Assembly (NCBI GenBank): GCA_964463635.1
Contig: CAYXCB010000002.1
Span: forward strand, 1-62,260
DNA: 62,260 nucleotides
Direction of reading: 5' to 3'
Source of the DNA: an uncultured Candidatus Saccharibacteria bacterium
GTDB lineage: Bacteria > Patescibacteriota > Saccharimonadia > Saccharimonadales > CAZARM01
Positions 12,076 through 46,040 of the stretch are shown in pieces. Each line of letters begins with the position of its first letter. The stretch's first letter is position 1. Position numbers and translations under genes: made by a program. Under the pieces are notes generated by a model, which searched no databases, was not told where the DNA came from, and saw only the letters and a list, made by a program, of their open reading frames with translations.

Positions 12076-12323
12076 TGTAGGTGAAAACAAAAATGTGGGT
12101 AATATCCGGCTAGCCAACCGGTTCGCACTTACAAATCAAAAGTCCTTCGACTAGGCTCAGGATCATTCAATAAATTTGAAGGTTCAGCTCACTTCCTGGT
12201 TCAAACTTGTATGTTTACCACGAGAGAGCAAAGCGAGTCGAATGGTGGGCACAACTTGGCGTTAGTTATGAGGGTTTCACGTGAAACTTTATTAAGTATT
12301 GCCAAAAATTTAAGAAAAGTTAA

Positions 12324-12351
12324 CAGGTTACTGTAGACAGTACACAGTTTC
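12324..12351. repeat. heptanucleotide array, left arm (CAGGTTA CTGTAGA CAGTACA CAGTTTC)
   Basis: Four 7-nt units. Reverse-complementary in consensus (AGTNNAC) to 12371..12405. Confidence 0.5.
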
Positions 12352-12370
12352 GAAAGCAGCTGGAATTGGC

Positions 12371-12405
12371 GTAAACTGTTAGCTGTAAACTGTTTACTGT
12401 ATACT
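12371..12405. repeat. heptanucleotide array, right arm (GTAAACT GTTAGCT GTAAACT GTTTACT GTATACT)
   Basis: Five 7-nt GTNNACT units ending 6 nt before the valS start. Only 19 nt separate the two arms and no ORF lies between them. Confidence 0.55.
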
Positions 12406-24859: not shown

Positions 24860-24874
24860 GCCGAAGGCTTAGAT

Positions 24875-24902
24875 GTCATCAGTCATCTGTTATCCGTATT
24901 CA
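24875..24902. repeat. heptanucleotide array flanking cassette 1 (GTCATCA GTCATCT GTTATCC GTATTCA)
   Basis: Four GTYNTCN units between the hsp20 stop and the cassette ORF stop. Confidence 0.55.
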
Positions 24903-24903
24903 G

Positions 24904-25248
24904 TTAGATTTTAAGTGACTTAATAAACCCAGTCAGCAATCTTGAAATGTCCTTAGCTAGGATCAGGCGATTATCGGAATCCTTTATGTAACCATGCCCT
25001 TGACCAATTAACAGCATTGACCTTACCTCCGCCGCTGATCCTCTGGCGATTATAAGAAACTGTCTTAGCTCCTTATCAGACCCCCTGTCGAAGCCTTCGG
25101 CGATATTATTGCTAATTGATAGTGTCGCCCTTAATAATTGATCCTTGTAGGCGTATGCTCTGCAAGTTTCCATATCATGAACAACCAGACCATATAACAG
25201 TTTGGCTTTTTGCCAGGAAACAACGTCTTCGAAAGTCTTAATTGTCAT
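24904..25248 (-). CDS. four-helix-bundle protein (23S rRNA intervening-sequence protein family), cassette 1
   Basis: 114 aa. FEDVVSWQKAKLL...ISNNIAEGFDRGSDKELRQFLIIARGSAAEVRSML. Paralogous to 34560, 36027 and 45656. Confidence 0.85.
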   Translation of the reverse strand: MTIKTFEDVVSWQKAKLLYGLVVHDMETCRAYAYKDQLLRATLSISNNIAEGFDRGSDKELRQFLIIARGSAAEVRSMLLIGQGHGYIKDSDNRLILAKDISRLLTGFIKSLKI

Positions 25249-25250
25249 AG

Positions 25251-25285
25251 TGACGACTGATGACAGAGGACAGACAACAGGTGAC
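25251..25285. repeat. heptanucleotide array flanking cassette 1, inverted arm (TGACGAC TGATGAC AGAGGAC AGACAAC AGGTGAC)
   Basis: The reverse complement gives GTCGTCA GTCATCA GTCCTCT GTTGTCT GTCACCT, the same GTYNTCN consensus as 24875..24902. Confidence 0.55.
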
Positions 25286-31900: not shown

Positions 31901-32261
31901 AGGATTGCCCGTGGGCGCCCCGGGTGGACCGGGCGCTCCGGGTGGACCTCCTATCCCTCCCGCACCTCCTGCTGGTGGTGCCGGTGGGGCTGCAGGTGGG
32001 CCTCCCCCTCCTTCTGACCGCCGACTTAAAAGAAACATAGAGCCCCTAGTGGAGCTAGAAAATGGTATAAAACTTTATAAGTTCCAGTATTTGTGGAGCA
32101 ACCAAAGCTACGTTGGTGTTATGGCGCAGGATTTACTTGATACACACCCATCAGCAATTTCTATAGGTGCAAATGGTTTTTATCGCGTAAATTACACTCT
32201 CTTAGGACTAGAGATGCTCACCTGGGAAGAATACCTGAAGCGCACCAAAGCACCAGTATAA
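28989..32261 (+). CDS. VirB6/TrbL-like polytopic T4SS channel protein with a C-terminal tail-spike intramolecular-chaperone (peptidase S74-like) domain
   Basis: 1090 aa. Signal peptide, ~360-aa extracytoplasmic domain, a block of TM helices (about nt 30170-30910), a soluble region, a Gly/Pro linker (GAPGGPGAPGGPPIPPAPPAGGAGG...PPPP), then SDRRLKRNIEPL...VGVMAQDLLDTHPSAI...YRVNYTLLG. Confidence 0.65.
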   Translation: MRRKLATLAACGLILLSVSMSLLVSLYPVPVSATETVAKDEERRLLIAFKYCLSNQKIDESDNGNPAEDFNDIWDDGNNGFSREDVVVGFELEGDNGVKSCQTSVMPGLQLLESNVSSPEQANARLYDLLADSDGGKFRSNRDTLVRRIDEAITKLGPDPRRGFTASRLAPLITHCYDLKTDDPQLDAGSQNFRAKLKGTTYFFEHTKPDDDSFEWIDQGDGGRDAGVGQRYNTIGDVSLSFTAGGAKDFESFEDDFFPFGSDLQNFTNSGHTGTGNNGILDCRFIKEKVESGFFTDDVVESVNVDTNSIVTGIDIDGDGKVDEVIEQVNTGPTGGGAGDEPSCENDGGESSWILCPALRVASSFLQTIDEKLNDLLSLDSDYYNNSDLRETWQRIRNLAYVILIPIMLVMVISTALGFELISAYTVKKALPRFFVAILFMTLSFDITKFLIILTNDVGQGMQGLVISSFTGQGELTLASLFDPGGYSGALFTGAAVAGVVLGPGLILVLASYLFVGGLALLIALLAFSLRQMLLIMSMVLAPLAILAWIFPGNDKLWKLWWGAFSKLLLLYPLIMVLIGGGKAFAAIVQQVGVSDFLATVLKLAAYIGPYFFIPAMFKFAGGIFATVTGMANDRSKGLFDRQKKYRERKLGEKFTDAKRGEYYKRDNAISRAVNRGGIGIGAGYKGGFGFGRRGEEARARIGQEAATDATQNNKKLRELILNDDHGGAVMALSGGTLRGAEQASHDLAAGWMRSDPTLSAADAETRRVRALAAARATGITRTNAQAAMTMMMQNKARSVGDGDWATVQAGIDRLHPNNTTAAEQMRDSAQFFARGNGRADLGGATPGAGYGRIQPGQLVTGHPSGVRAVTQELQTRYNMALATGNYDDATDAASEITALRSVAGSATPENRVILGEFFDGVAGIDTGDQRSLDEQFGDFLSFTSGGTAGTTNEVTNRIRAQAGLYDQGTRGLPVGAPGGPGAPGGPPIPPAPPAGGAGGAAGGPPPPSDRRLKRNIEPLVELENGIKLYKFQYLWSNQSYVGVMAQDLLDTHPSAISIGANGFYRVNYTLLGLEMLTWEEYLKRTKAPV

Positions 32262-32310: not shown

Positions 32311-33342
32311 ATGGAAACGCCTACAACACAAACAGATCTACAACCCGCTCCTGATGCCCACTTACCGGAAGAGCAGCACAAACATGAACTGCTTGCAAGA
32401 GTAGGCGAGGAACTTAGGCTTGCTTATCATGGCGTGCTAAGAAACATTTCGGAACGGCGCATGTCCATGGGTGGTGACCGCATGGAAACCATGGACCACA
32501 AGGACGCTCTATACGCCGACATAGGCAACATAGCGGCCGGACAGGAAGCTGTGCTTACTGATACCGTTTCAGGTCAGACGGCAAGGCCTAGATCCTTCGT
32601 AGAGCGCTATATGGACAAGCGTCTGGATAAAAAGAACTGGCGAGCTGAACTCCAAGCCTCTGAGCGTAAGCGAACTGTCGCCGCTTACGGCGGTGAACGG
32701 TCGCAGACTATGCGCTCTGATAGCTTGATAGACACTTTTGCGCGTAAACGGGTCGCGGGTTCAGTGTACCGCGCTGGTGATATGTCAGCCGCAGAGTTAA
32801 GGCTCGCCCGCGCAGATATTCAAGCGACCCCCAGGGCGTTTGAGAATTCAGAACAGCGCAAGACCAGGCGTCGAGCTGATGGTGCCGTCAATGATCTAGA
32901 AAAAACAGCTGAGCAACCAGTACTTTCCAGATGGCGCGGGTGGCGGCGCGGGGAAGCCATCAAAGATATAAAGCGCCACCACTCGCGTGCCGAAAAGCAC
33001 CGTGTTCAGGAAGATAAGTTTGCTGCCAGGCGTGCCGAATGGCAAGCTGGAGCGCCTCAAAGAGTTCAAGCCGCGCAAGCGGAAAAGCAAAGGAAGCAGG
33101 AAAGACGTCGTGAACGAATGCAGAGAGTCGGTAATTTCGCACTGTCTGTTGGTCGTGGGATTTCGGATCGATTAAGTCAGCATAAAGACGAAACGGTCAA
33201 TGCTTACCACGAGGGTCTCTCGAATGAAGATGTTGCTGGCGGCCGGGTACAACAGCGTATCGATAAACTAGCTCGCTTAAGCGGCCGAAGATACTCCCGG
33301 ACCAAAACCAAATTAGCGGCTCGTCGCAACCCCGAAGCATAA
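32311..33342 (+). CDS. hypothetical highly basic Arg/Glu-rich soluble protein
   Basis: 343 aa with no TM. Long charged helical runs (RRAEWQAGAPQRVQAAQAEKQRKQERRRERMQR). Visibly GC-richer than its neighbours. Confidence 0.5.
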   Translation: METPTTQTDLQPAPDAHLPEEQHKHELLARVGEELRLAYHGVLRNISERRMSMGGDRMETMDHKDALYADIGNIAAGQEAVLTDTVSGQTARPRSFVERYMDKRLDKKNWRAELQASERKRTVAAYGGERSQTMRSDSLIDTFARKRVAGSVYRAGDMSAAELRLARADIQATPRAFENSEQRKTRRRADGAVNDLEKTAEQPVLSRWRGWRRGEAIKDIKRHHSRAEKHRVQEDKFAARRAEWQAGAPQRVQAAQAEKQRKQERRRERMQRVGNFALSVGRGISDRLSQHKDETVNAYHEGLSNEDVAGGRVQQRIDKLARLSGRRYSRTKTKLAARRNPEA

Positions 33343-33392
33343 CAACAGCATAACCTTTATACTTTAGGGTTTGTCCCTTATAATTAACCCTA

Positions 33393-34520
33393 ATGGCGAC
33401 GTATAAGGTACTTCAAGATATCGAGGCTGAAGATAAGCTGATCGGGCCGCTGAGCTTACGGCAGTTTATTTATGCCATTATGGTGATTGTTATTTTGTTT
33501 GTAGCTTGGCAGATGGCCAGAATCCAAATATTTCTAGGCCTGCCTCTGTTAATTCCAGCGTTATTTTTTGGGTTGCTGGCCGCGCCATTAGGAGCTTATC
33601 AGTCTAGTGAAATCTGGTTGCTGGGCAAAATACGCTTCTTTATAAAGCCGCGCCGGCGGATTTGGGATCAAAGCGGTATCAAACAGCTCGTCACTATTAC
33701 CGTACCGAAGAAAATCGAGCATCAGCTTACAAATAATCTGTCGCAGGTGGAAGTGAAGAGCCGGCTTAAGGCCCTGGCAAACACCATCGACAGCCGCGGC
33801 TGGGCTATCAAAAACGTTAATGAAAACCTATTCGCCCAACCCAGCTATATTAACAACCAAACCACTGATCGCTTGATTGATATTAGTAGCCTGCCACAAG
33901 AAGTAGCTAGTTACGACGTGTCGGCAACGGAGGATATACTGGATGAACAAAATAATCCGACCGCACAGCATTTAGATCAAATGATTAGTACATCTACTAA
34001 GACCCGGCGGCAGGATCTATTAGCAAATATGCGCAACAAGAGCCAGCCGACAACAACTCAAACACAGCCAGATTACTGGTTCATGAATCAAAACCCACCC
34101 GCTAAAACAGCGCCGGGTAGCGCTACGTTTAATAACTCCACCCTTGTAGCTCCTGGCACAACTTCTGACACAAACCCTACTACGAAAGCTGATGAGCAGG
34201 CTATTTTAAACCAGCTGCACGCCGACCACCAAAGAGGGAGTGCGGCTTATGGACACATGCGAACAATTCGTCCTGCGGACGAAAGTACACAGTACACAGT
34301 ACACAGTACACAGCAAAAAACTAAGACCAACGACAGTCAACAGTCAAACCAAGGACAGGCGACCGATAACGGAGGACGGACGACTGGCCGTACGGCCTCT
34401 GATCCTGCTATACTTGGACTTGCTAACAACGATGACCTAGATGTGGCTACTATCGCCCGGCAGGCCAATAAAAAACGAGGGCAAGAACCACCAGATGAAG
34501 TAGTGGTCAGCCTGCGCTAG
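33393..34520 (+). CDS. PrgI/VirB3-like T4SS membrane protein with a long Q/T/N-rich tail
   Basis: N-terminus YKVLQDIEAEDKLIGPLSLRQFIYAIMVIVILF plus a second TM, typical of PrgI-family proteins. The C-terminal ~180 aa are low-complexity and include a heptad-array-encoded STQYTVHSTQ. Confidence 0.65.
   Translation: MATYKVLQDIEAEDKLIGPLSLRQFIYAIMVIVILFVAWQMARIQIFLGLPLLIPALFFGLLAAPLGAYQSSEIWLLGKIRFFIKPRRRIWDQSGIKQLVTITVPKKIEHQLTNNLSQVEVKSRLKALANTIDSRGWAIKNVNENLFAQPSYINNQTTDRLIDISSLPQEVASYDVSATEDILDEQNNPTAQHLDQMISTSTKTRRQDLLANMRNKSQPTTTQTQPDYWFMNQNPPAKTAPGSATFNNSTLVAPGTTSDTNPTTKADEQAILNQLHADHQRGSAAYGHMRTIRPADESTQYTVHSTQQKTKTNDSQQSNQGQATDNGGRTTGRTASDPAILGLANNDDLDVATIARQANKKRGQEPPDEVVVSLR
34282..34309. 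repeat. heptanucleotide array inside the PrgI-like coding region (AAAGTAC ACAGTAC ACAGTAC ACAGTAC)
   Basis: Four 7-nt units read directly from the sequence, translated as ...ESTQYTVHSTQ.... Confidence 0.6.
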
Positions 34521-34525
34521 CAGGC

Positions 34526-34553
34526 GGAGTACTGAGTACTTAGTACAGAGTAC
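34526..34553. repeat. heptanucleotide array flanking cassette 2 (GGAGTAC TGAGTAC TTAGTAC AGAGTAC)
   Basis: Lies between the PrgI-like stop (34520) and the cassette ORF stop (34560). Complementary to 35074..35108. Confidence 0.6.
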
Positions 34554-34559
34554 GGGCTG

Positions 34560-34910
34560 CTAAGACGGTAACTTTCGAATAAAACCAGCCAGTATCATCG
34601 ATACCTCGTTAACCTTTATTAGTAACTCCTTCTGTTCACCTTCTTTGATATAGCCTAGGTCCAACGCAATAATTAGCATGGACTCAACCTCAGCCGCCGA
34701 TCCTTTGGCAATAAAAAGATAGTTTTTAAACGATTTATTGCTCTGTTTGGCATAGCCTTCAGCCACGTTATTCATGATTGATATAACAGCGCGTTGAATT
34801 TGGTCTCTGAAACTATAATCTCGACAGTCATTAAACGCACTATAAATATTAACTGTCAGATCCCGCCCTTTTTGCCAAGCAAGTATTTCTTTAAATGATC
34901 TTATGGGCAT
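34560..34910 (-). CDS. four-helix-bundle protein (IVS-protein family), cassette 2, antisense to the T4SS operon
   Basis: MPIRSFKEILAWQKGRDL...IMNNVAEGYAKQSNKSFKNYLFIAKGSAAEVESML. Start set at the ATG that aligns with the paralogs; the track start (34934, GTG) lies in the repeat array. Confidence 0.85.
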   Translation of the reverse strand: MPIRSFKEILAWQKGRDLTVNIYSAFNDCRDYSFRDQIQRAVISIMNNVAEGYAKQSNKSFKNYLFIAKGSAAEVESMLIIALDLGYIKEGEQKELLIKVNEVSMILAGFIRKLPS

Positions 34911-34930
34911 TGCGTCTATTTTAGCACCTG

Positions 34931-34958
34931 GCACTCTGTACTACACACTTGGTACTAT
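34931..34958. repeat. heptanucleotide array, inner right arm of cassette 2 (GCACTCT GTACTAC ACACTTG GTACTAT)
   Basis: Four 7-nt units just upstream of the cassette ORF start. Confidence 0.5.
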
Positions 34959-35073
34959 AAGCGGTTTCCCCTATACTTGTATTATGTAGTCTTGTTCTTG
35001 TATGGTGGGAATTACTAATGAAAATTATAATCTTGAATACTAAAATTATATACAAATTTGCGACGTTAGATCT

Positions 35074-35108
35074 GTACTCCGTACTCTGTACTCCGTACTC
35101 TGTACTCC
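35074..35108. repeat. heptanucleotide array, outer right arm of cassette 2 ((GTACTCY)x5)
   Basis: GTACTCC GTACTCT GTACTCC GTACTCT GTACTCC. Reverse complement of the RGAGTAC units at 34526..34553. Ends 20 nt before the next T4SS gene. Confidence 0.65.
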
Positions 35109-35127
35109 AAAGTCGGAGACTCTGCTA

Positions 35128-36027
35128 ATGGACCCAAATACACAGAATCAAAACCCCAATAACATACCCGGACCAGCGGCTCCTGGCGTACCACCACCTC
35201 CGCAATATGCGCCCATGCCAGGTATGCCCCCTCAGTACGCTGCCGGACAGCCATCTGCCCAGCCCGGGCCGGCCACGCCGCCACCACCGCACGTAAAAAG
35301 CAACCCTAACAGTACCCAAAACACTTTGCAGATCGCTGAAATTCGCGACGGCGTTGTGATTATGAACGATGGGTCATTCCGTTCGGTTGTTATGGTCAAA
35401 TCGATTAACTTTGACCTGATGAGTCCCCAGGAGCAGGAAGCTGTCGAATTCAGTTTCCAGGGCTTCCTAAATTCATTATATTTCCCGGTTCAGATTTTTG
35501 TACGGTCGCAAAAGGTTGATCTGCGGCCATATATAGAGAAGCTAGATAAAATCCGCACCGAGCACGATAATATGCTACTCGCATTATTAATGGAAGATTA
35601 CATAGATTACATTGCTAATTTGTCTATGCAAACCAACATTATGGATAAACGTTTTTACGTTATAATCCCGTACTACCCGACTACTGATATTCAGAAAGCC
35701 ATCACTCAAAGTAAAGACTTTTTCTCCGGGCTTAAGGGCTTGTTTAGCAATAAGGAATCCCATGTCACTATCAATGAACAAGACCTGGTCAAAGCCAAAG
35801 ACGAGCTGCGCAACCGTGTCCAGTCGGTTTTGAATGGGCTGCAGCAGAGCGGGATCCAGGGTTTGCCGCTTGATACCCAGGAGTTAATCGAGCTCTACTA
35901 CGACACTTATAATCCTGATACAGCTACCCGGCAGCAACTCAAAAACTTTGATGATTTATCAGCCCCGGTTGTAGGCAAGGGCCAGGGCAGTGCGCCTCAG
36001 CCGCAGCTAGACAGGGAGCTCAAGTGA
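35128..36027 (+). CDS. T4SS-associated protein with a proline-rich N-terminus
   Basis: 299 aa. PGPAAPGVPPPPQYAPMPGMPPQY..., then a globular part (LQIAEIRDGVVIMNDGSFRSVVMVKSINFDLMSPQEQEAV). Sits between the PrgI-like gene and VirB4. Function unknown. Confidence 0.55.
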   Translation: MDPNTQNQNPNNIPGPAAPGVPPPPQYAPMPGMPPQYAAGQPSAQPGPATPPPPHVKSNPNSTQNTLQIAEIRDGVVIMNDGSFRSVVMVKSINFDLMSPQEQEAVEFSFQGFLNSLYFPVQIFVRSQKVDLRPYIEKLDKIRTEHDNMLLALLMEDYIDYIANLSMQTNIMDKRFYVIIPYYPTTDIQKAITQSKDFFSGLKGLFSNKESHVTINEQDLVKAKDELRNRVQSVLNGLQQSGIQGLPLDTQELIELYYDTYNPDTATRQQLKNFDDLSAPVVGKGQGSAPQPQLDRELK

Positions 36028-36428
36028 TGAAAACTGAAGCACGAAGCCCGAAAGCAGAAACAAGCACGAAGCCCGAAAGCAGAAACGTAAAACGTTTCGA
36101 TCTAGAGGATCGAACTCTATTATTCGCAAGGGACGTGCGAAGTTTTATTTCTCAGCTTCCTAAAACAACTGCTTATTTTGAGGATGGTAAACAAGTAGTA
36201 CGATCATCGGGATCAGTCGGTGCTAACTATTTAGAGGCGAACGAATCGCTTAGCAAGAAAGACTTTGCGATGCGGATCAAAATTGCTAAAAAAGAAGCCC
36301 GAGAGACTATATACTGGCTTGAGGTAATAACTGCTCCGCCAGAATTATTGGTAGCACAACAGTCTTTGCTAAAAGAAGCGACGGAATTGATGAACATATT
36401 AGGTGCAATTTTAAGGAAGAGTCAGTAA
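36027..36428 (+). CDS. four-helix-bundle protein (IVS-protein family), cassette 3, sense within the T4SS operon
   Basis: ATG overlaps the upstream stop (TGATG). The core RFDLEDRTLLFARDV...SVGANYLEANESLSKKDFAMRIKIAKKEARETIYWL is a diverged member of the family. The first ~20 codons are encoded by the repeat array. Confidence 0.75.
   Translation: MKTEARSPKAETSTKPESRNVKRFDLEDRTLLFARDVRSFISQLPKTTAYFEDGKQVVRSSGSVGANYLEANESLSKKDFAMRIKIAKKEARETIYWLEVITAPPELLVAQQSLLKEATELMNILGAILRKSQ
36036..36086. repeat. repeat array, left arm of cassette 3 (GAANNNN heptads; 23-nt GCACGAAGCCCGAAAGCAGAAAC present twice, period 25)
   Basis: Exact copies at 36039-36061 and 36064-36086. Contains CCCGAAA, which is complementary to the right arm. 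Confidence 0.65.
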
Positions 36429-36455
36429 TGTTTCATAATTCTGATTTCAAATTTG

Positions 36456-36483
36456 TTTCGGGTTTCGGGTTTCGGGTTTCGGG
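36456..36483. repeat. (TTTCGGG)x4 array, right arm of cassette 3; also a canonical G-quadruplex motif
   Basis: Four perfect heptads. G3 tracts at 36460-62, 36467-69, 36474-76 and 36481-83 are separated by TTTC. Ends ~10 nt before the virB4 SD (GGAGG). Confidence 0.7.
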
Positions 36484-36507
36484 TTTGAAAAACCGGAGGT
36501 TCTTCTA

Positions 36508-38424
36508 ATGGCTTTCGGCAAAAACAAACGTCCCCAATTTGATCCTGTTACCCTAGCCCAGAGCCAACGCCATGCTGAACAGCAAGAAGTCCAGGCTGCT
36601 TTCCAGAAAGGCATTACGGCTTTGCGTGATTTTATCGCACCGTCTTCATTGGAATTTGGCAGCACACACTTCCAACTTGGTACCCGCTATGCTCGAACCT
36701 ACTACGTCTATGGGTACCCTCGTCAGGTTTATACGGGCTGGCTATCGCCCATGATCAACATGGACGAAGTAATGGATATGTCGCTGTACATTTATCCTGT
36801 CGAGAGCCAAGTTGTCTTGGAAAACTTGCGCAAAAAAGTTGGCCAACTGGAAGCCGGCCTACAAATCGATGCTGAAAAGGGTCGAGTCCGTGATCCTGGC
36901 AAGCAGGCGGCGATTCAAGACGCCGAAGAAATGCGCGACAAGCTACAGGTTGGTGAAGAGCGCTTCTTCCGCTTTGGTTTTTACTTCACGATTTATGCCG
37001 GTAGCTTGGACGAACTCGAGTTTGTAGCCCACAAGGTTGAATCAATTCTGGGTCAGCAGTTGGTTTACTCCAAGCCGGCAACTTCGCAGCAAGAGCAAGG
37101 GCTCAATAGCACGATTCCGGCCTTTACGGACCAGCTGCAAATCCGCCGCAACTTTTCAACTGGTGCGCTATCAACCAGTTTCCCATTTACCTCAGCTGAC
37201 CTAAGCCAAGAAAATGGTATTTTATACGGTGTAAATATGCATAACTCCGGCCTGGTTATCTTTGATCGTTTTAGTCTAGAAAACAGCAACTCAGTAGTCT
37301 TCGCTAAATCCGGCGCTGGTAAATCGTTTACGGTTAAACTCGAGGCCCTGCGCAGCATGATGTTTGGTACCGAAGTGTTTATCATTGACCCGGAAAACGA
37401 ATACCAGCGAATGGCCGAAGCTGTCGGCGGAGCTTACGTTCGACTAAGTTTAAATTCAGCGACTCGTATCAACCCATTTGACTTACCAAAAGTTGTCGAT
37501 ACTGAAGAAGCCGACAATGCTCTTCGTAGCAACCTGATTACCCTGCACGGCTTGCTCCGACTCATGATGGGCGGAGCCCAGGCCCAAATGCTAGGTGGGG
37601 GCGCTACTATGATGCCGGCTCTAAGCCCGGTTGAAGAGTCAGACTTAGATGCCGCCCTAATTGAAACTTACGCCAAGGCCGGTATTACTAATGACCCCTT
37701 AACTCACACCGGTCAGCCTCCCACGATTGCTGACCTCTATGACACTCTGCTGCATATGGGCGGGAGCGGACCCCAGCTAGCTCAGCGCCTGCGCAAATAC
37801 ACCACAGGTACATTTGCCGGTATTTTCTCTCAGCAAAGCAATACCGATATCAACAACCCGTTAGTAGTCTTTAATATCCGCGACCTAGAAGATGAATTAC
37901 GCCCGGTAGCCATGTACATTGTGCTCAATTACATCTGGAATAAGACTAAATCTGATCAAAAACGCCGTATCTTGATTGTTGACGAAGCATGGCAATTAAT
38001 GAAGTATGAGGATTCAGCCAACTTCTTGTTTAGCCTAGCTAAACGAGCCAGAAAATATAACCTAGGTATTACTACTATCACTCAAGATGTGGAAGACTTT
38101 ATGGGTTCTAGGATGGGTAGAGCTATTGTGGCTAACGCTAGTATGCAGATATTGCTCAAGCAATCACCCTCAGCAGTTGATGTCTTGACTGATGTGTTCA
38201 AATTAACCAGCGAAGAGAAGAAACGTTTAAGCCAATTCCCGGTCGGGCAGGGACTGTTCTTTGCCGGCCAGAACCACGTTCATATCCAAGTTACTGCTAG
38301 TCCAACAGAGACTGGGCTGATTACCACCAACCCTGAGCAAGTCCAGCAAATGGCCTTAGCCGGCGAGTTAAATCAACCCCAAGGCACCATTGACCTTAAT
38401 AACCCGGCACCGCCGGCGGTATAA
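36508..38424 (+). CDS. virB4: VirB4/PrgJ/TraE-type T4SS ATPase
   Basis: 638 aa. Walker A VFAKSGAGKSF, Walker B RRILIVDEAWQL, ITTITQDVEDF, and an N-terminal domain with ...YPRQVYTGWLSPMI.... Confidence 0.9.
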   Translation: MAFGKNKRPQFDPVTLAQSQRHAEQQEVQAAFQKGITALRDFIAPSSLEFGSTHFQLGTRYARTYYVYGYPRQVYTGWLSPMINMDEVMDMSLYIYPVESQVVLENLRKKVGQLEAGLQIDAEKGRVRDPGKQAAIQDAEEMRDKLQVGEERFFRFGFYFTIYAGSLDELEFVAHKVESILGQQLVYSKPATSQQEQGLNSTIPAFTDQLQIRRNFSTGALSTSFPFTSADLSQENGILYGVNMHNSGLVIFDRFSLENSNSVVFAKSGAGKSFTVKLEALRSMMFGTEVFIIDPENEYQRMAEAVGGAYVRLSLNSATRINPFDLPKVVDTEEADNALRSNLITLHGLLRLMMGGAQAQMLGGGATMMPALSPVEESDLDAALIETYAKAGITNDPLTHTGQPPTIADLYDTLLHMGGSGPQLAQRLRKYTTGTFAGIFSQQSNTDINNPLVVFNIRDLEDELRPVAMYIVLNYIWNKTKSDQKRRILIVDEAWQLMKYEDSANFLFSLAKRARKYNLGITTITQDVEDFMGSRMGRAIVANASMQILLKQSPSAVDVLTDVFKLTSEEKKRLSQFPVGQGLFFAGQNHVHIQVTASPTETGLITTNPEQVQQMALAGELNQPQGTIDLNNPAPPAV

Positions 38425-38453
38425 TAAACGAAGCATTACTAAGATAGAGATTT

Positions 38454-41249
38454 ATGGGCGAACCAGCACCAATATACGATGACGAACAGTCCCCAGATCC
38501 ATACACGCCGAAACCGCGTTTTGGCGTTGTTGATGGTGAAGGCCAGTCAACGCCTAGGAGCAAAGGACATTTAAAAAGTGTTAGCAGTAATGACTTAAAT
38601 GCTGCCGAGCAAGCCGGTGCAACACCAGAACTGGATCTACCAAGCACCGCTGAGAAAAACTTAACCGGTGATAGCGACCAGATTGGAGGCGGCTTCAAAA
38701 AAGAAGGTGACAGGCGCAAGGGCCGCTTTTCAAGAAAACAGAAGATTGCTGGCGGAGGCATAATAGGCTTATTGCTTGGCGGGGGTGTTGGGATAATAAC
38801 GCTCATTAGCGGCCCTTTGCAGCTATTGCATTTATCTAAAACTCTTTTACCCAACTTTGCCAATCAAGATCATGCTAGCAATGTCAGGATTCGTGGCTTA
38901 TACAGGTGGGCTAAAACTGGCAACCCTGGCGAAACGCGAATAGGTGCATTGAGCAGCAAATTTGTGTATCCAGAGATCCAAAAAAGTCTAGCCAAAAATG
39001 GTATCGCCATCGGCACGGACAGGTTTACTGGTCAAATAACAACGTTAACGATTGAGCCGGCCAAAAACCCCCAGTATCAGGGATTGTCACCCGATGAGGC
39101 GAGAGCCCGCATTGCGGCCGATAACGGTATTGACCCAGCCAAGGTATCTCAGACAAGCGGACTAAATGGTGGAAAGTTTTCATTTAACCTTAGGGACTCG
39201 AATATTGCCGCTAAAAGGGCGGCCATAAGAACCCATGTTGAAAGCCAAAATCTTGGCAAGATCAAGACGGCCTTACAAATCAGAACGCTTGGCAAGGTCC
39301 ACAATGCGCCTTCCTGGCTGCACCCCTTGAAACGGGCGGGGGCTTCGATCGACCTTAAGATATCTACTCGCATCCAAAGATCTAACCTATTTAAGGAATA
39401 TGAAGCAAGACGTACCGCTAAAGCGGCGGCCAGAACCGCCGCTGCCGAAGCGCGGGTAGCTGCGGTCAAATCAAAGTTAAGGATTGGTGCCGGCGCCGCC
39501 GGAGCTGTACTGCTTGGATCTACTGCTGTTTGCGTAGCAAAGGATGTGGCCAGCGAAGTTCCAGCCCTCAATCGCGAGAACATCGTGATACCGGCTATGA
39601 AGTCGTCCGTGGACGCCATGGCGCTAGGTGCGCAAATCCAGTCCGGCCACGTGCCATCCGACGGCTTTGAACAAATGGGCACAATTGTTCAAAACCTTAA
39701 GGACGAGGAAGGCAGGAGTATTTGGGAAGGCAGGGCCCTACAGTCCGAACTGGGCCATGAAACTGGCGAGGATATTGACCCGGATCTTAAGCAAGCATTT
39801 TCACCCGAGAGCTCAGCGTCGAATATCGAACAAGCCCTTGATTCACTTGGAGCTGATGCCCTATGCAGTAAGGCCGGACAGTTGTTTTCGACAGTTGCGG
39901 GTACAGCGCTATTATTTGTTCCGGGGGTTGGCGTGGCAACCAAAATCGTCTCGACAGCCGCTGGTGCAGCCGTTATTACTGCTATCACCACACTTCTGCC
40001 AAGAATATTGGATAATGATACTGCTATTGGGGTCTTGCACCAAGGTCCCAACGGGGGTAATGTCGACGCCTACGGCGCCCGTGAGGCCGCTAATTCTTCA
40101 TTCCGCTCAACCGGCGGCTCAGAGCTCAGCTCAGCTCAAAGCGCGGCACTAAAAAAACAACACGATCAACTGGACAAGGAAGAATTTCAGGCCAAGAGCT
40201 TTGCCAGCCGGATATTTGACGTATACGACCATCGATCAATCGCAGGTAAGCTTATCGACAAAACAAGCAGCAGCCCCGTCCAGAATGTGGCAAGTGCTGC
40301 GCGCGGGCTAACGAGCGGAGCCTGGTTGACAGGTTTGTCATCTCTATTCACACCTAAAACATACGCCGCTACTGAAGTCCCTTATGATTATGGCTTCCCG
40401 GAGTACGGATTTAGCCTTAGTGACCTTGAAGACCCTTTAGTAGAAGATCCTTATGCCAATGCCGATGAAGTGGCAAAAATCCTTAATGGACTTGAAGGTC
40501 AGAAATATATCGATAAAGCTAAGGTTTGTTTTGGTGTTGACATAGTAAAAGGCGCCGATGGCTGGGATGCCATTACCAGTACTGATGTTAACCCCAGCAC
40601 CGCCGACTATGCCGAGGCAAACTGTCTAGAGGCCGGCAATAATGATTGGTTGCGAGTCCGCTTCTTTGTTTTCGACTCCCAAGCAATGAATAGCTACGCA
40701 TGTTACGAGGGGGACGAGTCTTCCTGCACCCAGCTTGGTTTTGGTGCCAATACAAGCAGCTCCACCGGAGCGGCCACAGGATCTGGTGTAGATACTTCAG
40801 CAATGGCTTGTCCGAGCGATCCTGATATCACCGACGGCGGGGTTGTGGAAAAGTATGGGCCAGGTAAAATTCTGCAGTATAGGATCAGGCTGTGCCTCGT
40901 GTTTGGCATCGATGTCAATGTTTCAATAGCGCAAAATACCGCCAATATGATCCGGGCTGCAGCGGCCCAAGGAGTAACACTGCAAGGGGGAGGCTATCGA
41001 ACTTATGAGGAGCAAGTAGCTTTAAGAGTAGACCATGGATGCGCCAGTGATTCCTTACCAGCGAGTGCTTGTTCGCCCCCCACGGCCTCGCCAGGAACCT
41101 CCAATCACGAAGATGGCGAAGCAATCGACTTTACTAATTGTGGATCGCGTGGCACAGCCTGTTATCAGTGGCTAGCAACTAACGCGGCGACATATGGGCT
41201 AATTAATCTACCTAGTGAGCCGTGGCATTGGTCAAGGACGGGCAACTAG
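38454..41249 (+). CDS. large membrane-anchored T4SS protein with a C-terminal LAS-type (VanY/peptidase M15-like) peptidoglycan peptidase domain
   Basis: 931 aa. TM GGGIIGLLLGGGVGIITLISG. The C-terminus has GGGYRTYEEQ, SNHEDGEAIDF (SxHxxGxAxD) and EPWHW. Confidence 0.7.
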   Translation: MGEPAPIYDDEQSPDPYTPKPRFGVVDGEGQSTPRSKGHLKSVSSNDLNAAEQAGATPELDLPSTAEKNLTGDSDQIGGGFKKEGDRRKGRFSRKQKIAGGGIIGLLLGGGVGIITLISGPLQLLHLSKTLLPNFANQDHASNVRIRGLYRWAKTGNPGETRIGALSSKFVYPEIQKSLAKNGIAIGTDRFTGQITTLTIEPAKNPQYQGLSPDEARARIAADNGIDPAKVSQTSGLNGGKFSFNLRDSNIAAKRAAIRTHVESQNLGKIKTALQIRTLGKVHNAPSWLHPLKRAGASIDLKISTRIQRSNLFKEYEARRTAKAAARTAAAEARVAAVKSKLRIGAGAAGAVLLGSTAVCVAKDVASEVPALNRENIVIPAMKSSVDAMALGAQIQSGHVPSDGFEQMGTIVQNLKDEEGRSIWEGRALQSELGHETGEDIDPDLKQAFSPESSASNIEQALDSLGADALCSKAGQLFSTVAGTALLFVPGVGVATKIVSTAAGAAVITAITTLLPRILDNDTAIGVLHQGPNGGNVDAYGAREAANSSFRSTGGSELSSAQSAALKKQHDQLDKEEFQAKSFASRIFDVYDHRSIAGKLIDKTSSSPVQNVASAARGLTSGAWLTGLSSLFTPKTYAATEVPYDYGFPEYGFSLSDLEDPLVEDPYANADEVAKILNGLEGQKYIDKAKVCFGVDIVKGADGWDAITSTDVNPSTADYAEANCLEAGNNDWLRVRFFVFDSQAMNSYACYEGDESSCTQLGFGANTSSSTGAATGSGVDTSAMACPSDPDITDGGVVEKYGPGKILQYRIRLCLVFGIDVNVSIAQNTANMIRAAAAQGVTLQGGGYRTYEEQVALRVDHGCASDSLPASACSPPTASPGTSNHEDGEAIDFTNCGSRGTACYQWLATNAATYGLINLPSEPWHWSRTGN

Positions 41250-44556: not shown

Positions 44557-45618
44557 TTACCTTAGGGGGATGATGTGGCAGCGGTCCATGAAGTGCTGGA
44601 CCACGACGTCGGCGTCAGTAGTGGTTATAAACGTTTGATGGCCGCTTAAAAAGTCGGTTAGGGCCCGTCGCCTGGAGCCATCAAGCTCGCTAAAAACATC
44701 ATCCAGTAGCAAGATGGGCCGCTGGTCGCGGGCTGCTTCAATTAGCTGCATTTCGACAATCTTTAGGCTCAAAACCATCGTCCGTACTTCGCCCCTGGAA
44801 GCTGCGTCGTCAGCAAGGTAGCCATTTAAGGAAACCTGCAAATCGTCCCGGTGCGGGCCGTAGGCCGTGAAGCCACGCTGATAGTCTAGCTCACTGCCTT
44901 GGTCTAGTTTGTGTAGTAGTTTCGAGCTGTAGTTCTCCGTGCCGCAAGAACTTTGATAGCTAATCTCGAGCTTGGCTTTGGTCTTGGACAGTTGGCGGTA
45001 AAGTTTTTGCACCGAACCGTTCAGTTTGGCCACCAGTTCTATGCGCCTAGCAGCTATTTGGCCGCCCAGTTCGCTCAGGCGAATATTCCAAGCGAACAGC
45101 TGTTGGTTAGCCTGATTAGGGTTTTGCTTGAGCAGGGCATTGCGCTGAGCCAGTGCCCGTTTGTATTGGCGGCGAACAATTCCAAAGCCGCCAATAGTTT
45201 GTTCTAGTAGATTATCCAGGAACTCCCGGCGGTGCTCCGGCGAGCCGTGCAGTAGTTGCAAATGGTTGGGCTCAAACAACACGACTGGCTGGGTTTTATG
45301 CAGCGGCAGCCGTATGTATGGATGATTGTCGACAATGAATGATTTCTTGATTCGAGCCGTGCCCTCAACCGCTTCCAGCTTAACCGTCCTGGAGCCATTC
45401 TCGCCGTGGCTGTCCAGCCTAGACCAGCTTTGGCCGTGTCTTATCAACTCGGGGTCGCGAACCCGGTAAGAGCCGCCCGCTGAAGCCACCAGCAGAGCTT
45501 CTAGTAGGTTGGTCTTGCCGCTGGCGTTCGGGCCAACAATTATATTAACGCCGGGATCGAGTTCAAAGGTTTCGTCCTGGTAGGAGCGAAAGTGCTGCAA
45601 GCGAATGTCGCTGATCAT
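44557..45618 (-). CDS. recF: DNA replication/repair protein RecF
   Basis: 353 aa. Walker A GPNASGKTNLLEAL, signature/Walker B region ILLLDDVFSELD. Confidence 0.93.
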   Translation of the reverse strand: MISDIRLQHFRSYQDETFELDPGVNIIVGPNASGKTNLLEALLVASAGGSYRVRDPELIRHGQSWSRLDSHGENGSRTVKLEAVEGTARIKKSFIVDNHPYIRLPLHKTQPVVLFEPNHLQLLHGSPEHRREFLDNLLEQTIGGFGIVRRQYKRALAQRNALLKQNPNQANQQLFAWNIRLSELGGQIAARRIELVAKLNGSVQKLYRQLSKTKAKLEISYQSSCGTENYSSKLLHKLDQGSELDYQRGFTAYGPHRDDLQVSLNGYLADDAASRGEVRTMVLSLKIVEMQLIEAARDQRPILLLDDVFSELDGSRRRALTDFLSGHQTFITTTDADVVVQHFMDRCHIIPLR

Positions 45619-45620
45619 AT

Positions 45621-45658
45621 GAGTATAAAGTCCATAAAGTTCTTAAAGTCTAAAGTCA
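45621..45658. repeat. short tandem repeat array (7-9-nt GTNNNTAAA units), left arm of cassette 4
   Basis: GAGTATAAA GTCCATAAA GTTCTTAAA GTCTAAA GTCATAG, between the recF start and the cassette ORF stop. Confidence 0.5.
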
Positions 45659-46000
45659 TAGGCTCTTTATAAATCCAGAAAGAAGTTTGGATGTTTCAAT
45701 AGCCAGATCTATAAGCTGCTTGGCACTTTTTTGTTCGATATAGCCCAGTTCTTCGCCCAGACGAACCATAGAGCGCACTTCGCCGCAAGAACCTTTTGCG
45801 ATGAACAGAAATTGTTTGAGTTCTTTGTTGCTTCTTCTCTCAAAACCCTCGGCAATATTATTCATAATCGAAACGCTTGCCCGTTGAAGTTGAGAGTTAT
45901 AACCAGCATCTCTAATTACCTTACATTCGAAATAGATCAGTTTTGTTAACTCTTTTGCTTTTTGCCAGGCTATTACTTCTTCAAAAGAGTTTATCGTCAT
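45656..46000 (-). CDS. four-helix-bundle protein (IVS-protein family), cassette 4, inside the dnaN-recF interval
   Basis: 114 aa. MTINSFEEVIAWQKAKELT...IMNNIAEGFERRSNKELKQFLFIAKGSCGEVRSMV. Confidence 0.85.
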   Translation of the reverse strand: MTINSFEEVIAWQKAKELTKLIYFECKVIRDAGYNSQLQRASVSIMNNIAEGFERRSNKELKQFLFIAKGSCGEVRSMVRLGEELGYIEQKSAKQLIDLAIETSKLLSGFIKSL

Positions 46001-46040
46001 GTCTTAACTTTACACTTTTTACTTGTTACTTTCGACTTGC
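46001..46040. repeat. short tandem repeat array (ACTT every 6-8 nt), right arm of cassette 4
   Basis: GTCTTAACTTTACACTTTTTACTTGTTACTTTCGACTTGC. Its reverse complement carries AAAGT/CAAGT units like the left arm. Confidence 0.5.

What the first reader, a model, noticed from the sequence alone, without database searches (positions are those of the whole stretch)
36027..36487. Cassette 3 is translationally coupled into the T4SS operon; its right arm is a (TTTCGGG)4 G-quadruplex motif just upstream of the virB4 ribosome-binding site
Seen in sequence:
- The cassette ORF's ATG overlaps the stop of 35128..36027 (TGATG).
- Its first ~20 codons (KTEARSPKAETSTKPESRN) are simply the left repeat arm, which contains an exact 23-nt duplication with a 25-nt period (36039-36061 and 36064-36086).
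- The right arm is four perfect TTTCGGG units (36456-36483), followed by GAAAAACCGGAGG and the virB4 ATG at 36508.

Established knowledge: G3N4G3N4G3N4G3 fits the canonical intramolecular G4 definition.

Inference: the 5' region of the virB4 message can either pair with the upstream CCCGAAA arm (long stem, possible RNase III target) or fold into an RNA G-quadruplex next to the SD. That makes a plausible switch controlling expression of the T4SS ATPase.
Basis: partly seen in the sequence, partly recalled or inferred. Interest (0 to 1): 0.65.

Follow-up and report, generated by a model that had tools for sequence, protein, structure and literature searches.

The report
IVS-like gene cassette splitting VirB4
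The repeats are real, but they are the two arms of a small cassette of the kind known from 23S rRNA intervening sequences, here inserted between the two halves of a secretion ATPase gene in a Saccharibacteria genome, and its G-quadruplex motif is a lineage-specific by-product, not a conserved switch.

Summary
Every sequence observation checks out: the TGATG stop/start overlap, the exact 25-nt duplication, (TTTCGGG)4, the GGAGG, and the virB4-like ATG at 36508.

The cassette ORF (36027-36428) is a PF05635/TIGR02436 four-helix-bundle "23S rRNA intervening-sequence protein". It is bracketed by inverted arrays of ~7-nt tandem repeats. The window holds four such cassettes.

In 64 of 79 Saccharibacteria relatives the upstream gene (a TraC-like, VirB4-N-domain ORF) overlaps or abuts the ATPase ORF (54 by one base, TAATG). 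That is the empty site. Nine lineages carry the orthologous cassette there.

- **Coupling:** its ATG overlaps the upstream stop in 9/9, and virB4 has its own SD in 9/9.
- **Real gene:** the ORF core is under purifying selection (pN 0.22, pS 0.84).
- **G4:** the motif occurs in 1/9 orthologues, 0/4 related cassettes in other phyla, and 1/70 cassettes of another subfamily. The arm-arm stem out-competes it in folding.
- **Arms:** what is conserved is a GAAA(C)/(G)TTTC block every 7 nt, as in the Coxiella IVS, which has GACAGAT heptamers and is cut by RNase III.

Verdict: translational coupling is supported and an RNase III stem is plausible by analogy. The G4 switch is not supported. This is a new variant of a known kind.

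The parts
35128..36027 (+). TraC-like / VirB4 N-terminal-domain ORF (299 aa). It holds the SD-like GGGAG (36014-36018) that in relatives drives the overlapping virB4 start. Its stop is TGA 36025-36027.
   Evidence: NCBIfam hits to TrsD/TraD and to the N-terminal parts of VirB4 models. Orthologues carry PF26593 TraC-like. Empty-site junction ...AGGGAGCTNCAGTAATGGC in relatives.
36027..36428 (+). Cassette ORF: four-helix-bundle '23S rRNA intervening-sequence protein' (133 aa). Its ATG overlaps the upstream stop (TGATG). Codons 1-20 are the left arm read in frame.
   Evidence: PF05635, 50 bits. TIGR02436, 69.5 bits. PDB 2RLD, E 5e-13. At least 7991 relatives. pN 0.22 versus pS 0.84 across 9 orthologues.
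36029..36093 (+). Left arm: degenerate heptamers (GAAGCAC GAAGCCC GAAAGCA GAAAC...), including an exact 25-nt tandem duplication at 36037-36086.
   Evidence: (D2, I3, I6-I8).
36455..36487 (+). Right arm: (GTTTCGG)x4.6, a perfect array that is the reverse complement of the left-arm motif. It contains the canonical G4 motif at 36460-36483.
   Evidence: Pairs with the left arm in the MFE and centroid structures.
36495..36499 (+). Independent Shine-Dalgarno sequence (GGAGG) for the downstream ATPase ORF, 8 nt before its ATG. A relic TAATG overlaps that ATG.
   Evidence: An SD is present before virB4 in all 9 cassette-bearing orthologues, and a relic T(A/G)ATG in 5/9.
36508..38424 (+). VirB4-like T4SS ATPase (638 aa), the C-terminal half of a split VirB4.
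   Evidence: PF19044, PF12846 and PF01935. 84-90% identical homologues in 80 Saccharibacteria genomes.
34526..35108 (-). Cassette 2: PF05635 ORF (34560-34934, minus strand) between inverted arrays of GAGTACT / GTACTCC units, inserted between the PrgI-family ORF and the TraC-like ORF.
   Evidence: (I1, I5). Relatives have a 20-60 nt spacer at this site. An orthologue with GAGTAC/GAGTCC arms is at the same site in L183.
24874..25272 (-). Cassette 1: PF05635/TIGR02436 ORF (24904-25248, minus strand) between inverted arms built of TGTCATC-type units.
45615..46035 (-). Cassette 4: TIGR02436 ORF (45656-46000, minus strand) between AAAGT-type and ACTTT-type arrays. It belongs to the large AAAGT subfamily.

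Best explanation
Cassette 3 is an intervening-sequence (IVS)-type element. It is a four-helix-bundle protein gene (PF05635/TIGR02436, the family encoded inside 23S rRNA IVSs and related to DGR Avd) enclosed by two inverted arrays of ~7-nt tandem repeats.

**Where it sits.** It lies in a Saccharibacteria type IV secretion operon, exactly at the one-base stop/start overlap (TAATG) that ancestrally couples a TraC-like VirB4-N-domain ORF to the VirB4 ATPase ORF.

**Shown.**
- The insertion is discrete and shared by at least 9 lineages.
- The cassette ORF starts at the 5' edge of the left arm, always overlapping the upstream stop. It is therefore placed to be translated by termination-reinitiation from the ancestral SD.
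- The ORF core is under purifying selection.
- The ATPase ORF has its own SD just past the right arm.
- The arms conserve a GAAA(C)/(G)TTTC block every 7 nt with variable spacers.

**Inferred.**
- In the polycistronic RNA the arms pair into an imperfect stem. As in the Coxiella and Leptospira 23S IVS, this stem is a substrate for RNase III, which would separate the upstream, cassette and downstream segments.
- Ribosomes entering by coupling melt the left arm, which allows the cassette protein to be made.
- The perfect (TTTCGGG)4 array, and hence the G-quadruplex motif, arose by slippage and homogenisation in this lineage only. It has no conserved role.
For: **Protein family.**

**Four cassettes with the same plan in the window.**

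**Empty site.** The stop/start gap is 2 nt or less in 64/79 relatives, 54 of them with a 1-nt overlap.

**Orthologous cassettes.** They sit at the same junction in L011, L161, L163, L165, L168, L169, L171 and L172, with the start overlapping the upstream stop in 9/9 and an SD before virB4 in 9/9.

**Selection.** Core pN is 0.22 against a saturated pS of 0.84. Synonymous change is lower in the arm-encoded codons (pS 0.56).

**Stem.** The arm-arm stem is in the MFE and centroid structures, z = -2.99. Duplex z is -2.3 to -5.1 in 9/9 orthologues. The RNAalifold consensus keeps a 21-pair terminal stem.

**G4.** Present in 1/9, 0/4 and 1/70 cassettes. It is not in the MFE of the whole cassette.

**Generality.** Of 70 AAAGT-subfamily cassettes from metagenomes, 50 have at least 2 AAAGT upstream and at least 2 ACTTT downstream, spaced 7-9 nt. 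Arrays are typically 3-5 units and abut the ORF.

**Precedent.** The Coxiella 23S IVS has a 28-bp terminal stem, an S23p ORF, and (GACAGAT)x2-3 heptamers whose number varies between strains. RNase III cuts at the first repeat (PMC4990558).
Against: - **No RNA data for this locus.** Only DNA runs hold the window. A rhizosphere RNA run gave just two read-sized contigs on L011, one spanning the upstream-ORF/cassette junction.
- **No sign of RNA-level selection on pairing.** G.U-type and A.C-type mismatches are equal (75 vs 74 in the AAAGT subfamily; 19 vs 30 in the c3 set).
- **No locus-specific co-evolution.** A cassette's own arms pair no better than arms from other loci.
- **Little covariation.** Consensus pairs are nearly invariant, and the spacers between the GAAA/UUUC blocks are unpaired. 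In several orthologues the stem would be four short helices, a poor RNase III substrate.
- **Orientation varies.** Cassette 2 and its orthologue L183 lie antisense to the operon.
- **No RNase III gene in the window**. With only 62 kb this is uninformative.
Confidence: 0.6

Rival explanations
1. The right arm toggles between pairing with the left arm and folding into an RNA G-quadruplex next to the SD, and this acts as a switch for VirB4 ATPase translation.
For: The canonical G3N4 x4 motif is real, lies on the sense strand, and is one of two in the window. Folded alone, the right arm prefers the G4 (-11.3 vs -5.5 kcal/mol for 36455-36490; -23.1 vs -20.9 with the SD region). The left arm is translated, so ribosomes could free the right arm.
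Against: G3 tracts are absent in 8/9 orthologues, with no G2 motif either. They are also absent in 4/4 related cassettes from other phyla and in 69/70 AAAGT-type cassettes. With G4 energies on, the full cassette MFE keeps the stem. The G4 ends 11 nt upstream of the SD. All orthologues keep an SD regardless of arm sequence.
Confidence: 0.06
2. The arms are DNA-level features. They are the ends of a non-autonomous mobile or recombining cassette (hairpin or cruciform, or repeat arrays used for insertion and excision). Any RNA stem is a side effect.
For: The mismatch spectrum is strand-symmetric. The motif, not the pairing, is what is conserved. Cassettes occur in either orientation at the same junction: window cassette 2 and L183 are antisense, L033 and L163 are sense. 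Presence is patchy, needing 8 gain/loss events for 9 carriers among 88 VirB4 sequences. L168 (carrier) and L046 (empty) have 96% identical VirB4. T(A/G)ATG flanks both junctions in several loci. ORF-less inserts with heptamers lie at the same junction in L001, L020, L061 and L073.
Against: No transposase or recombinase is in or next to any cassette. The four cassettes in the window share no arm sequence and are only 24-54% identical in protein, so they are not recent copies. Cassette and VirB4 distances correlate (rho 0.65), which fits long vertical residence. The duplicated ATG is required anyway for two start codons, so a target-site duplication cannot be proven.
Confidence: 0.22
3. The heptamer arrays are binding sites for the cassette's own pentameric four-helix-bundle protein, about one unit per subunit as in TRAP. 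This would give autoregulation or protection of the transcript or DNA.
For: Relatives are homopentamers: 2RLD has 5 chains, and Xcc0516 is described as a homopentamer in PMC4990558. Arrays are typically 3-5 units. A short conserved block recurs at fixed 7-nt spacing with free spacers. The unit is conserved within large protein subfamilies across phyla: AAAGT in the c4-like group and CGAAA in the c3-like group from Saccharibacteria, Doudnabacteria and Phycisphaerae.
Against: The unit does not always follow the protein. A 63%-identical relative of cassette 2 has GCTNNTA units instead of GAGTAC, and a c3-like protein in L163 has AATTT units. There is no binding data. Up- and downstream array lengths are uncorrelated.
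Confidence: 0.12
4. The perfect heptamer array is a simple-sequence contingency locus. Changes in repeat number tune virB4 expression, as with the 7-nt repeats upstream of the H. influenzae hmw genes.
For: It is a perfect 4.6-copy SSR 8 nt from the SD region. Arm copy number and higher-order duplications differ among orthologues. Coxiella strains differ in IVS heptamer number. Heptamer SSRs combined with RNase III-targeted 5'-UTRs are described in PMC12721329 (abstract only).
Against: No length variants were seen in the source metagenome, though only contigs at 3-6x depth were available. Most orthologues have degenerate arrays that are not slippage-prone.
Confidence: 0.08

Closest known systems
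ORF-containing 23S rRNA intervening sequences (Coxiella burnetii IVS with S23p; Leptospira and Xanthomonas types)
   Same: Size is about 430-460 nt. Both hold a PF05635 four-helix-bundle ORF and terminal inverted repeats able to form a stem around it. Both have tandem heptamer repeats in the arm next to the start codon, and the number of repeats varies.
   Different: The host site is an mRNA operon junction between two protein genes, not helix 25 or 45 of 23S rRNA; no Rfam family matches the region. The ORF is under purifying selection and translationally coupled, whereas Coxiella S23p is reported as decaying and probably untranslated. RNase III cleavage is untested here.
DGR accessory variability determinant (Avd)
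   Same: Same Pfam family and fold class. Homologues are pentameric and basic.
   Different: No reverse transcriptase or template/variable repeat pair lies among the neighbours at 32311-41249 or in the orthologous loci. The flanks are short tandem-repeat arrays instead.
Translationally coupled overlapping genes (TAATG/ATGA junctions) in operons
   Same: A 1- or 4-nt stop/start overlap with an SD inside the upstream ORF, conserved in 9/9 cassette carriers and in the empty sites.
   Different: Here the coupling partner has been replaced by an inserted cassette gene, and the original partner now relies on a separate SD.
Bacterial RNA G-quadruplex translational regulators
   Same: A canonical G3N4 x4 motif on the sense strand, 11 nt upstream of an SD.
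   Different: It is not conserved in orthologues, and predicted folding does not favour it over the competing stem.

Membership tests
ORF-containing 23S rRNA IVS element | Encodes a PF05635/TIGR02436 four-helix-bundle protein | tested here: met
   PF05635, 50.2 bits against a cutoff of 33.8. TIGR02436, 69.5 bits against a cutoff of 24. PDB 2RLD, E 5e-13.
ORF-containing 23S rRNA IVS element | Terminal inverted repeats that can form a stem enclosing the ORF | tested here: met
   Arms 36029-36093 and 36455-36487 are 76-83% complementary. The stem is in the MFE and centroid structures, z -2.99, and in the consensus of 9 orthologues.
ORF-containing 23S rRNA IVS element | Inserted in a 23S rRNA gene (helix 25 or 45) | tested here: not met
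   It lies between two protein-coding ORFs of a T4SS operon. No Rfam match at E<=1 in 33000-39000.
ORF-containing 23S rRNA IVS element | Excised from the primary transcript by RNase III | not testable with these tools
   No RNA runs hold the window. Only two RNA-library contigs lie on orthologue L011.
RNA G-quadruplex regulatory element | Canonical G3+N1-7 x4 motif on the transcribed sense strand | tested here: met
   36460-36483.
RNA G-quadruplex regulatory element | G-tracts conserved in orthologous or related elements | tested here: not met
   1/9 orthologues, 0/4 c3-like cassettes from other phyla, 1/70 c4-like cassettes.
RNA G-quadruplex regulatory element | G4 competitive with alternative folds in its native context | tested here: not met
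   ViennaRNA with G4 energies gives a whole-cassette MFE unchanged at -143.3 kcal/mol with the arm stem. The G4 appears only when the right arm is folded alone. This is a prediction only.
DGR (Avd-containing) | Adjacent reverse transcriptase and TR/VR repeat pair | tested here: not met
   Neighbouring ORFs are PrgI, TraC-like, the VirB4 ATPase and a VanY-domain protein. The orthologous loci are the same.
Transposon or MITE with terminal inverted repeats | Transposase in cis, or near-identical dispersed copies, plus a target-site duplication | tested here: inconclusive
   No transposase is present. The four window cassettes share no arm sequence and are 24-54% identical in protein. T(A/G)ATG occurs at both junctions in several loci, but the ATG is required functionally.
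Translationally coupled gene pair | Stop/start overlap with an upstream SD, conserved among orthologues | tested here: met
   TGATG in the window with GGGAG 8 nt upstream. Overlap of 1 or 4 nt in 9/9 orthologues.
Phase-variable simple-sequence repeat | Repeat-number polymorphism within a population | tested here: inconclusive
   No variants were seen in contigs of the source permafrost runs, but depth is 3-6x and contigs break at the repeat.

The most novel reading that the evidence does not exclude
PF05635 four-helix-bundle proteins and their flanking heptamer arrays form one self-contained protein-repeat module, in which the pentameric ring binds the ~4-5 tandem units of its own arms. On this reading the classic 23S rRNA IVSs are only the rRNA-resident minority of a very large family of such cassettes. 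Most members sit at stop/start junctions of ordinary operons, especially in CPR bacteria, and are gained or lost precisely at T(A/G)ATG overlaps.
Probability: 0.15. Interest if true: 0.8.

Novelty: new variant of a known kind. Interest (0 to 1): 0.5.

Why it matters
The role and origin of 23S rRNA intervening sequences and of their S23p/PF05635 proteins have been unclear for about 30 years (PMC4990558).

This locus shows the same architecture (a four-helix-bundle gene between inverted heptamer arrays) outside rRNA. It is under purifying selection and plugged into a translationally coupled junction between the two halves of a split VirB4. It belongs to a family with thousands of members and recognisable arm motifs. 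That gives a large comparative dataset and clear experiments (RNase III mapping, protein-repeat binding) for the question.

For annotation, it explains many 'four helix bundle protein' genes and odd tandem repeats in CPR operons. It also warns that a textbook G4 motif can be a by-product of repeat homogenisation.

I found no paper in the searched library that describes such cassettes in mRNA operons. The library is incomplete.

Tried and rejected
- **Arm co-evolution:** a cassette's own arms pair no better than cross-locus arms (own mean -37.4, cross mean -40.3 kcal/mol).
- **Strand asymmetry of wobble mismatches** (a test for RNA-level selection): none found.
- **Alignment-based covariation:** pairs are nearly invariant, with only 3 of 47 showing double changes.
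- **Rfam on 33000-39000:** no match.
- **Promoter and terminator scan:** no convincing terminator between the ORFs.
- **RNase III signature in the window:** none, which is uninformative for 62 kb.
- **RNA evidence:**
  - No RNA runs hold the window.
  - One RNA-library run on L011 gave two read-sized contigs only.
- **Repeat-number variants in the source metagenome:** none seen, but only low-depth contigs were available.
- **Viral-contig scans with cassette proteins 1, 2 and 3:** no relatives.
- **Strict co-variation of repeat unit with protein subfamily:** rejected as a rule, because L184 and L163a break it.
- **ORF-less inserts at the same junction:** only L027 folds significantly better than shuffles. 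L001, L020, L061 and L073 contain heptamer arrays but have weak hairpin z-scores.
- **First metagenome scan with a 6-protein alignment:** failed for lack of a conserved stretch. It was repeated with 3 proteins.
- **Literature searches for a prior description:** nothing beyond the IVS and DGR papers.
Full report
**1. Observation**

The sequence is as described.
- The 299-aa ORF 35128-36027 ends with TGA at 36025-36027. The cassette ORF starts at ATG 36027, giving TGATG. An in-frame GTG lies at 36024.
- Tandem Repeats Finder and the repeat finder give an exact 25-nt unit x2 at 36037-36086, and a perfect 7-nt unit x4.6 at 36455-36486.
- A 21-nt version of (TTTCGGG)n is expected 0.00 times in shuffles.
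- GGGTTTCGGGTTTCGGGTTTCGGG (36460-36483) is one of two canonical G4 motifs in the window, where about 0.6 are expected.
- GGAGG (36495-36499) lies 8 nt before the ATG at 36508 of a 638-aa ORF with TraG P-loop, AAA_10 and DUF87 domains.
- The two arms (36029-36093 and 36455-36487) are 76-83% complementary.

**2. What the cassette is**

The ORF 36027-36428 is a PF05635 '23S rRNA-intervening sequence protein', also TIGR02436 'four helix bundle protein'. Its closest solved relative is 2RLD, E 5e-13.

The window contains four such genes. Each is bracketed by imperfect inverted repeats built from its own short tandem units:
- cassette 1, 24874-25272;
- cassette 2, 34526-35108, with GAGTACT / GTACTCC units;
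- cassette 3, the one in the finding;
- cassette 4, 45615-46035, with AAAGT / ACTTT units.

An ORF-less heptamer hairpin lies at 12318-12405. The window comes from a permafrost metagenome, and its relatives are Saccharibacteria.

**3. The host site**

The upstream ORF is a TraC-like / VirB4-N-terminal-domain protein. It hits NCBIfam TrsD/TraD and the N-terminal parts of VirB4 models, and orthologues carry PF26593. Together with the ATPase ORF it therefore forms a split VirB4.

Among 79 Saccharibacteria loci with both genes:
- 64 have a stop/start gap of 2 nt or less. In 54 of these the genes overlap by one base, with consensus ...AGGGAGCTNCAGTAATGGC and the SD inside the upstream ORF.
- Fourteen carry 19-169-nt ORF-less inserts. 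Several of these contain their own heptamer arrays (L001, L020, L061, L073).
- One (L011) carries an orthologous cassette.

Protein search then found further orthologues (65-81% identical) at the very same junction in L161, L163, L165, L168, L169, L171 and L172. L163 has a cassette at three successive junctions of the operon.

**4. Translational coupling**

- In all 9 cassette-bearing loci the cassette ATG overlaps the upstream stop by 1 or 4 nt, and the ancestral SD-like purine run precedes it.
- In this clade there is no start codon after the arm, so the conserved N-terminus MK.E.RS.K.ET is the left arm read in frame.
- In more distant family members the ATG lies after the arm. There the arm-encoded peptide appears only as an optional ORF extension.
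- The ORF core is under purifying selection. Median pN is 0.22 against a saturated pS of 0.84. Synonymous change is lower in the arm-encoded codons (pS 0.56), as expected if the nucleotides themselves are constrained.
- All 9 loci have a separate SD before the ATPase ORF. Five of 9 retain a relic T(A/G)ATG overlapping its ATG, where about 1 in 8 is expected by chance. The cassette therefore went in just upstream of the ancestral overlap and brought its own ATG.
- One read-sized contig from an RNA-labelled rhizosphere library spans the upstream-ORF/cassette junction of L011. This is weak evidence for co-transcription.

**5. The G-quadruplex idea**

- Of the 9 orthologous cassettes, only the window has G3 tracts. 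The others have RTTTCNG-type units such as GTTTAGA, ATTTCAG and ATTTCGA, and lack even a G2-type motif.
- Four c3-like cassettes from Doudnabacteria, Phycisphaerae and Paceibacterota have none.
- Among 70 cassettes of the AAAGT subfamily, one has a G4 or C4 motif in either flank.
- With G4 energies enabled, the MFE of the whole cassette is unchanged and keeps the arm-arm stem. The G4 is preferred only when the right arm is folded in isolation, at -11.3 vs -5.5 kcal/mol.
- The motif ends 11 nt upstream of the SD.

The perfect array is therefore a lineage-specific homogenisation. Similar higher-order duplications of 25-32 nt occur in the arms of L161 and L163. Near-copies of (GTTTCGG)n are frequent in other contigs of the source metagenome.

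**6. What is conserved in the arms**

- The arm-arm duplex is stronger than shuffled controls in 9/9 orthologues (z -2.3 to -5.1). However, own arms pair no better than arms from other loci.
- RNAalifold on the 9 cassettes keeps a terminal stem of 21 pairs. These fall into four GAAA(C)/(G)UUUC helices spaced 7 nt apart, separated by variable, unpaired spacers. Covariation is almost absent.
- Mismatches between the arms show no excess of G.U-type over A.C-type (75 vs 74; 19 vs 30).

What is conserved, then, is a short sequence block at 7-nt spacing in inverted orientation, not a continuous helix.

The same holds at large scale. In 70 AAAGT-subfamily cassettes from unrelated metagenomes:
- AAAGT occurs 3.6 times per 100 nt upstream, and ACTTT 3.3 times per 100 nt downstream. 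That is about 35-39 times the random expectation.
- Spacing is 7-9 nt.
- Arrays are mostly 3-5 units. They end a median of 11 nt before the start codon and begin a median of 7 nt after the stop.

The unit is shared within large subfamilies (AAAGT; CGAAA), but not strictly. L184 and a c3-like gene in L163 have other units.

**7. Comparison with what is known**

The Coxiella burnetii 23S IVS has the following features (PMC4990558):
- It is 428-444 nt and carries an S23p (PF05635) ORF.
- It has terminal inverted repeats forming a 28-bp stem.
- It has tandem heptamers (GACAGAT x2-3, the number varying among strains) just upstream of the start codon.
- RNase III cuts it in the stem, at the first repeat.

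Cassette 3 shares the size, the protein family, the inverted arms and the heptamer build. It fails the defining location, which is 23S rRNA, and RNase III cleavage could not be tested. I therefore call it IVS-like, a new variant, not a member of the rRNA IVS class. It is not a DGR, because there is no RT or TR/VR pair. It is not a conventional transposon either, because there is no transposase and no near-identical copies.

**8. Mechanism**

Shown:
- a discrete insertion at a coupled junction;
- conserved coupling of the cassette ORF;
- purifying selection on the ORF;
- an independent SD for the ATPase ORF;
- conserved periodic arm motifs.

Inferred:
- the arms pair in the operon transcript and are cut by RNase III, as in rRNA IVSs;
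- ribosomes arriving by termination-reinitiation open the left arm, so the four-helix-bundle protein is made;
- the ATPase ORF is translated from its own SD.

The symmetric mismatch spectrum, the variable orientation and the patchy distribution keep a DNA-level role for the arms as a serious rival. On distribution, 8 gain/loss events are needed for 9 carriers on the VirB4 tree, and carrier L168 and empty L046 have 96% identical VirB4. Even so, cassette and VirB4 distances correlate (rho 0.65). The 7-nt periodic block and the 3-5-unit arrays also make binding by the pentameric protein a testable idea.

**9. Verdict**

The coupling claim is supported, and the RNase III stem is plausible by analogy. 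The G4 switch is not supported.

The underlying object is an IVS-type cassette that splits a split-VirB4 junction and belongs to a very large family of repeat-armed four-helix-bundle cassettes. It is of moderate interest, and I did not find it described in the searched literature.

Noticed in passing
window 12318-12405: An ORF-less hairpin built of heptamers (ACAGT-type units on the left, ACTGT-type on the right; (GTAAACT)x5 at 12371-12405). It lies just upstream of a long ORF and looks like a miniature of the cassette arms without the four-helix-bundle gene.
   Followed up: partly
window 34284-34313: (AGTACAC)x4.3 perfect heptamer array inside the PrgI-family ORF, about 210 nt upstream of cassette 2. 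Cassette 2's arm unit (GAGTAC) resembles it.
   Followed up: no
window 31913-31948: An 18-nt tandem repeat, GGGCGCCCCGGGTGGACC x2. It forms the only other canonical G4 motif in the window.
   Followed up: no
window 35109-35131 and 36489-36511: The ribosome-binding contexts just downstream of cassettes 2 and 3 are 78% identical over 23 nt (AAAGTCGGAGACTCTGCTAATGG vs AAAACCGGAGGTTCTTCTAATGG). Homologues of the 35128 ORF in relatives use a GGTGGG site instead. L001 shares CCGGAGGTT before virB4.
   Followed up: partly
L163:894-5374: One Saccharibacteria T4SS operon carries three four-helix-bundle cassettes at three successive gene junctions (PrgI / TraC-like / VirB4 ATPase / next gene). All are in the sense orientation, and each has different arm units.
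   Followed up: partly
window 34560-34934 (minus strand); L183:1501-1851: Cassette 2 and its 73%-identical orthologue lie antisense to the T4SS operon at the PrgI/TraC-like junction. L033 and L163 have unrelated cassettes in the sense orientation at the same junction. The annotated GTG start of cassette 2 is probably too far upstream; homologues start at the MPIRSF-equivalent ATG (about 34910).
   Followed up: partly
L168 vs L046; VirB4 tree of 88 loci: Cassette presence is scattered on the VirB4 tree (at least 8 events). A carrier and an empty-site genome have 96% identical VirB4, yet cassette and VirB4 divergence correlate. It is unexplained whether this reflects repeated precise loss or allele exchange.
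   Followed up: partly
window 36451-36489 in the source permafrost runs: Dozens of other contigs in the same metagenome carry near-copies of the (GTTTCGG)n array, some followed closely by the complementary CTCGAAAC units. This heptamer family is therefore common in the community.
   Followed up: no
L174:1501-1863, L178:1501-1890, L184:1501-1860: Related cassettes sit between co-directional housekeeping genes: LemA / peptidase M48; V-type ATPase B / D subunits; dnaN / recF. Operon junctions therefore seem to be the usual habitat.
   Followed up: partly
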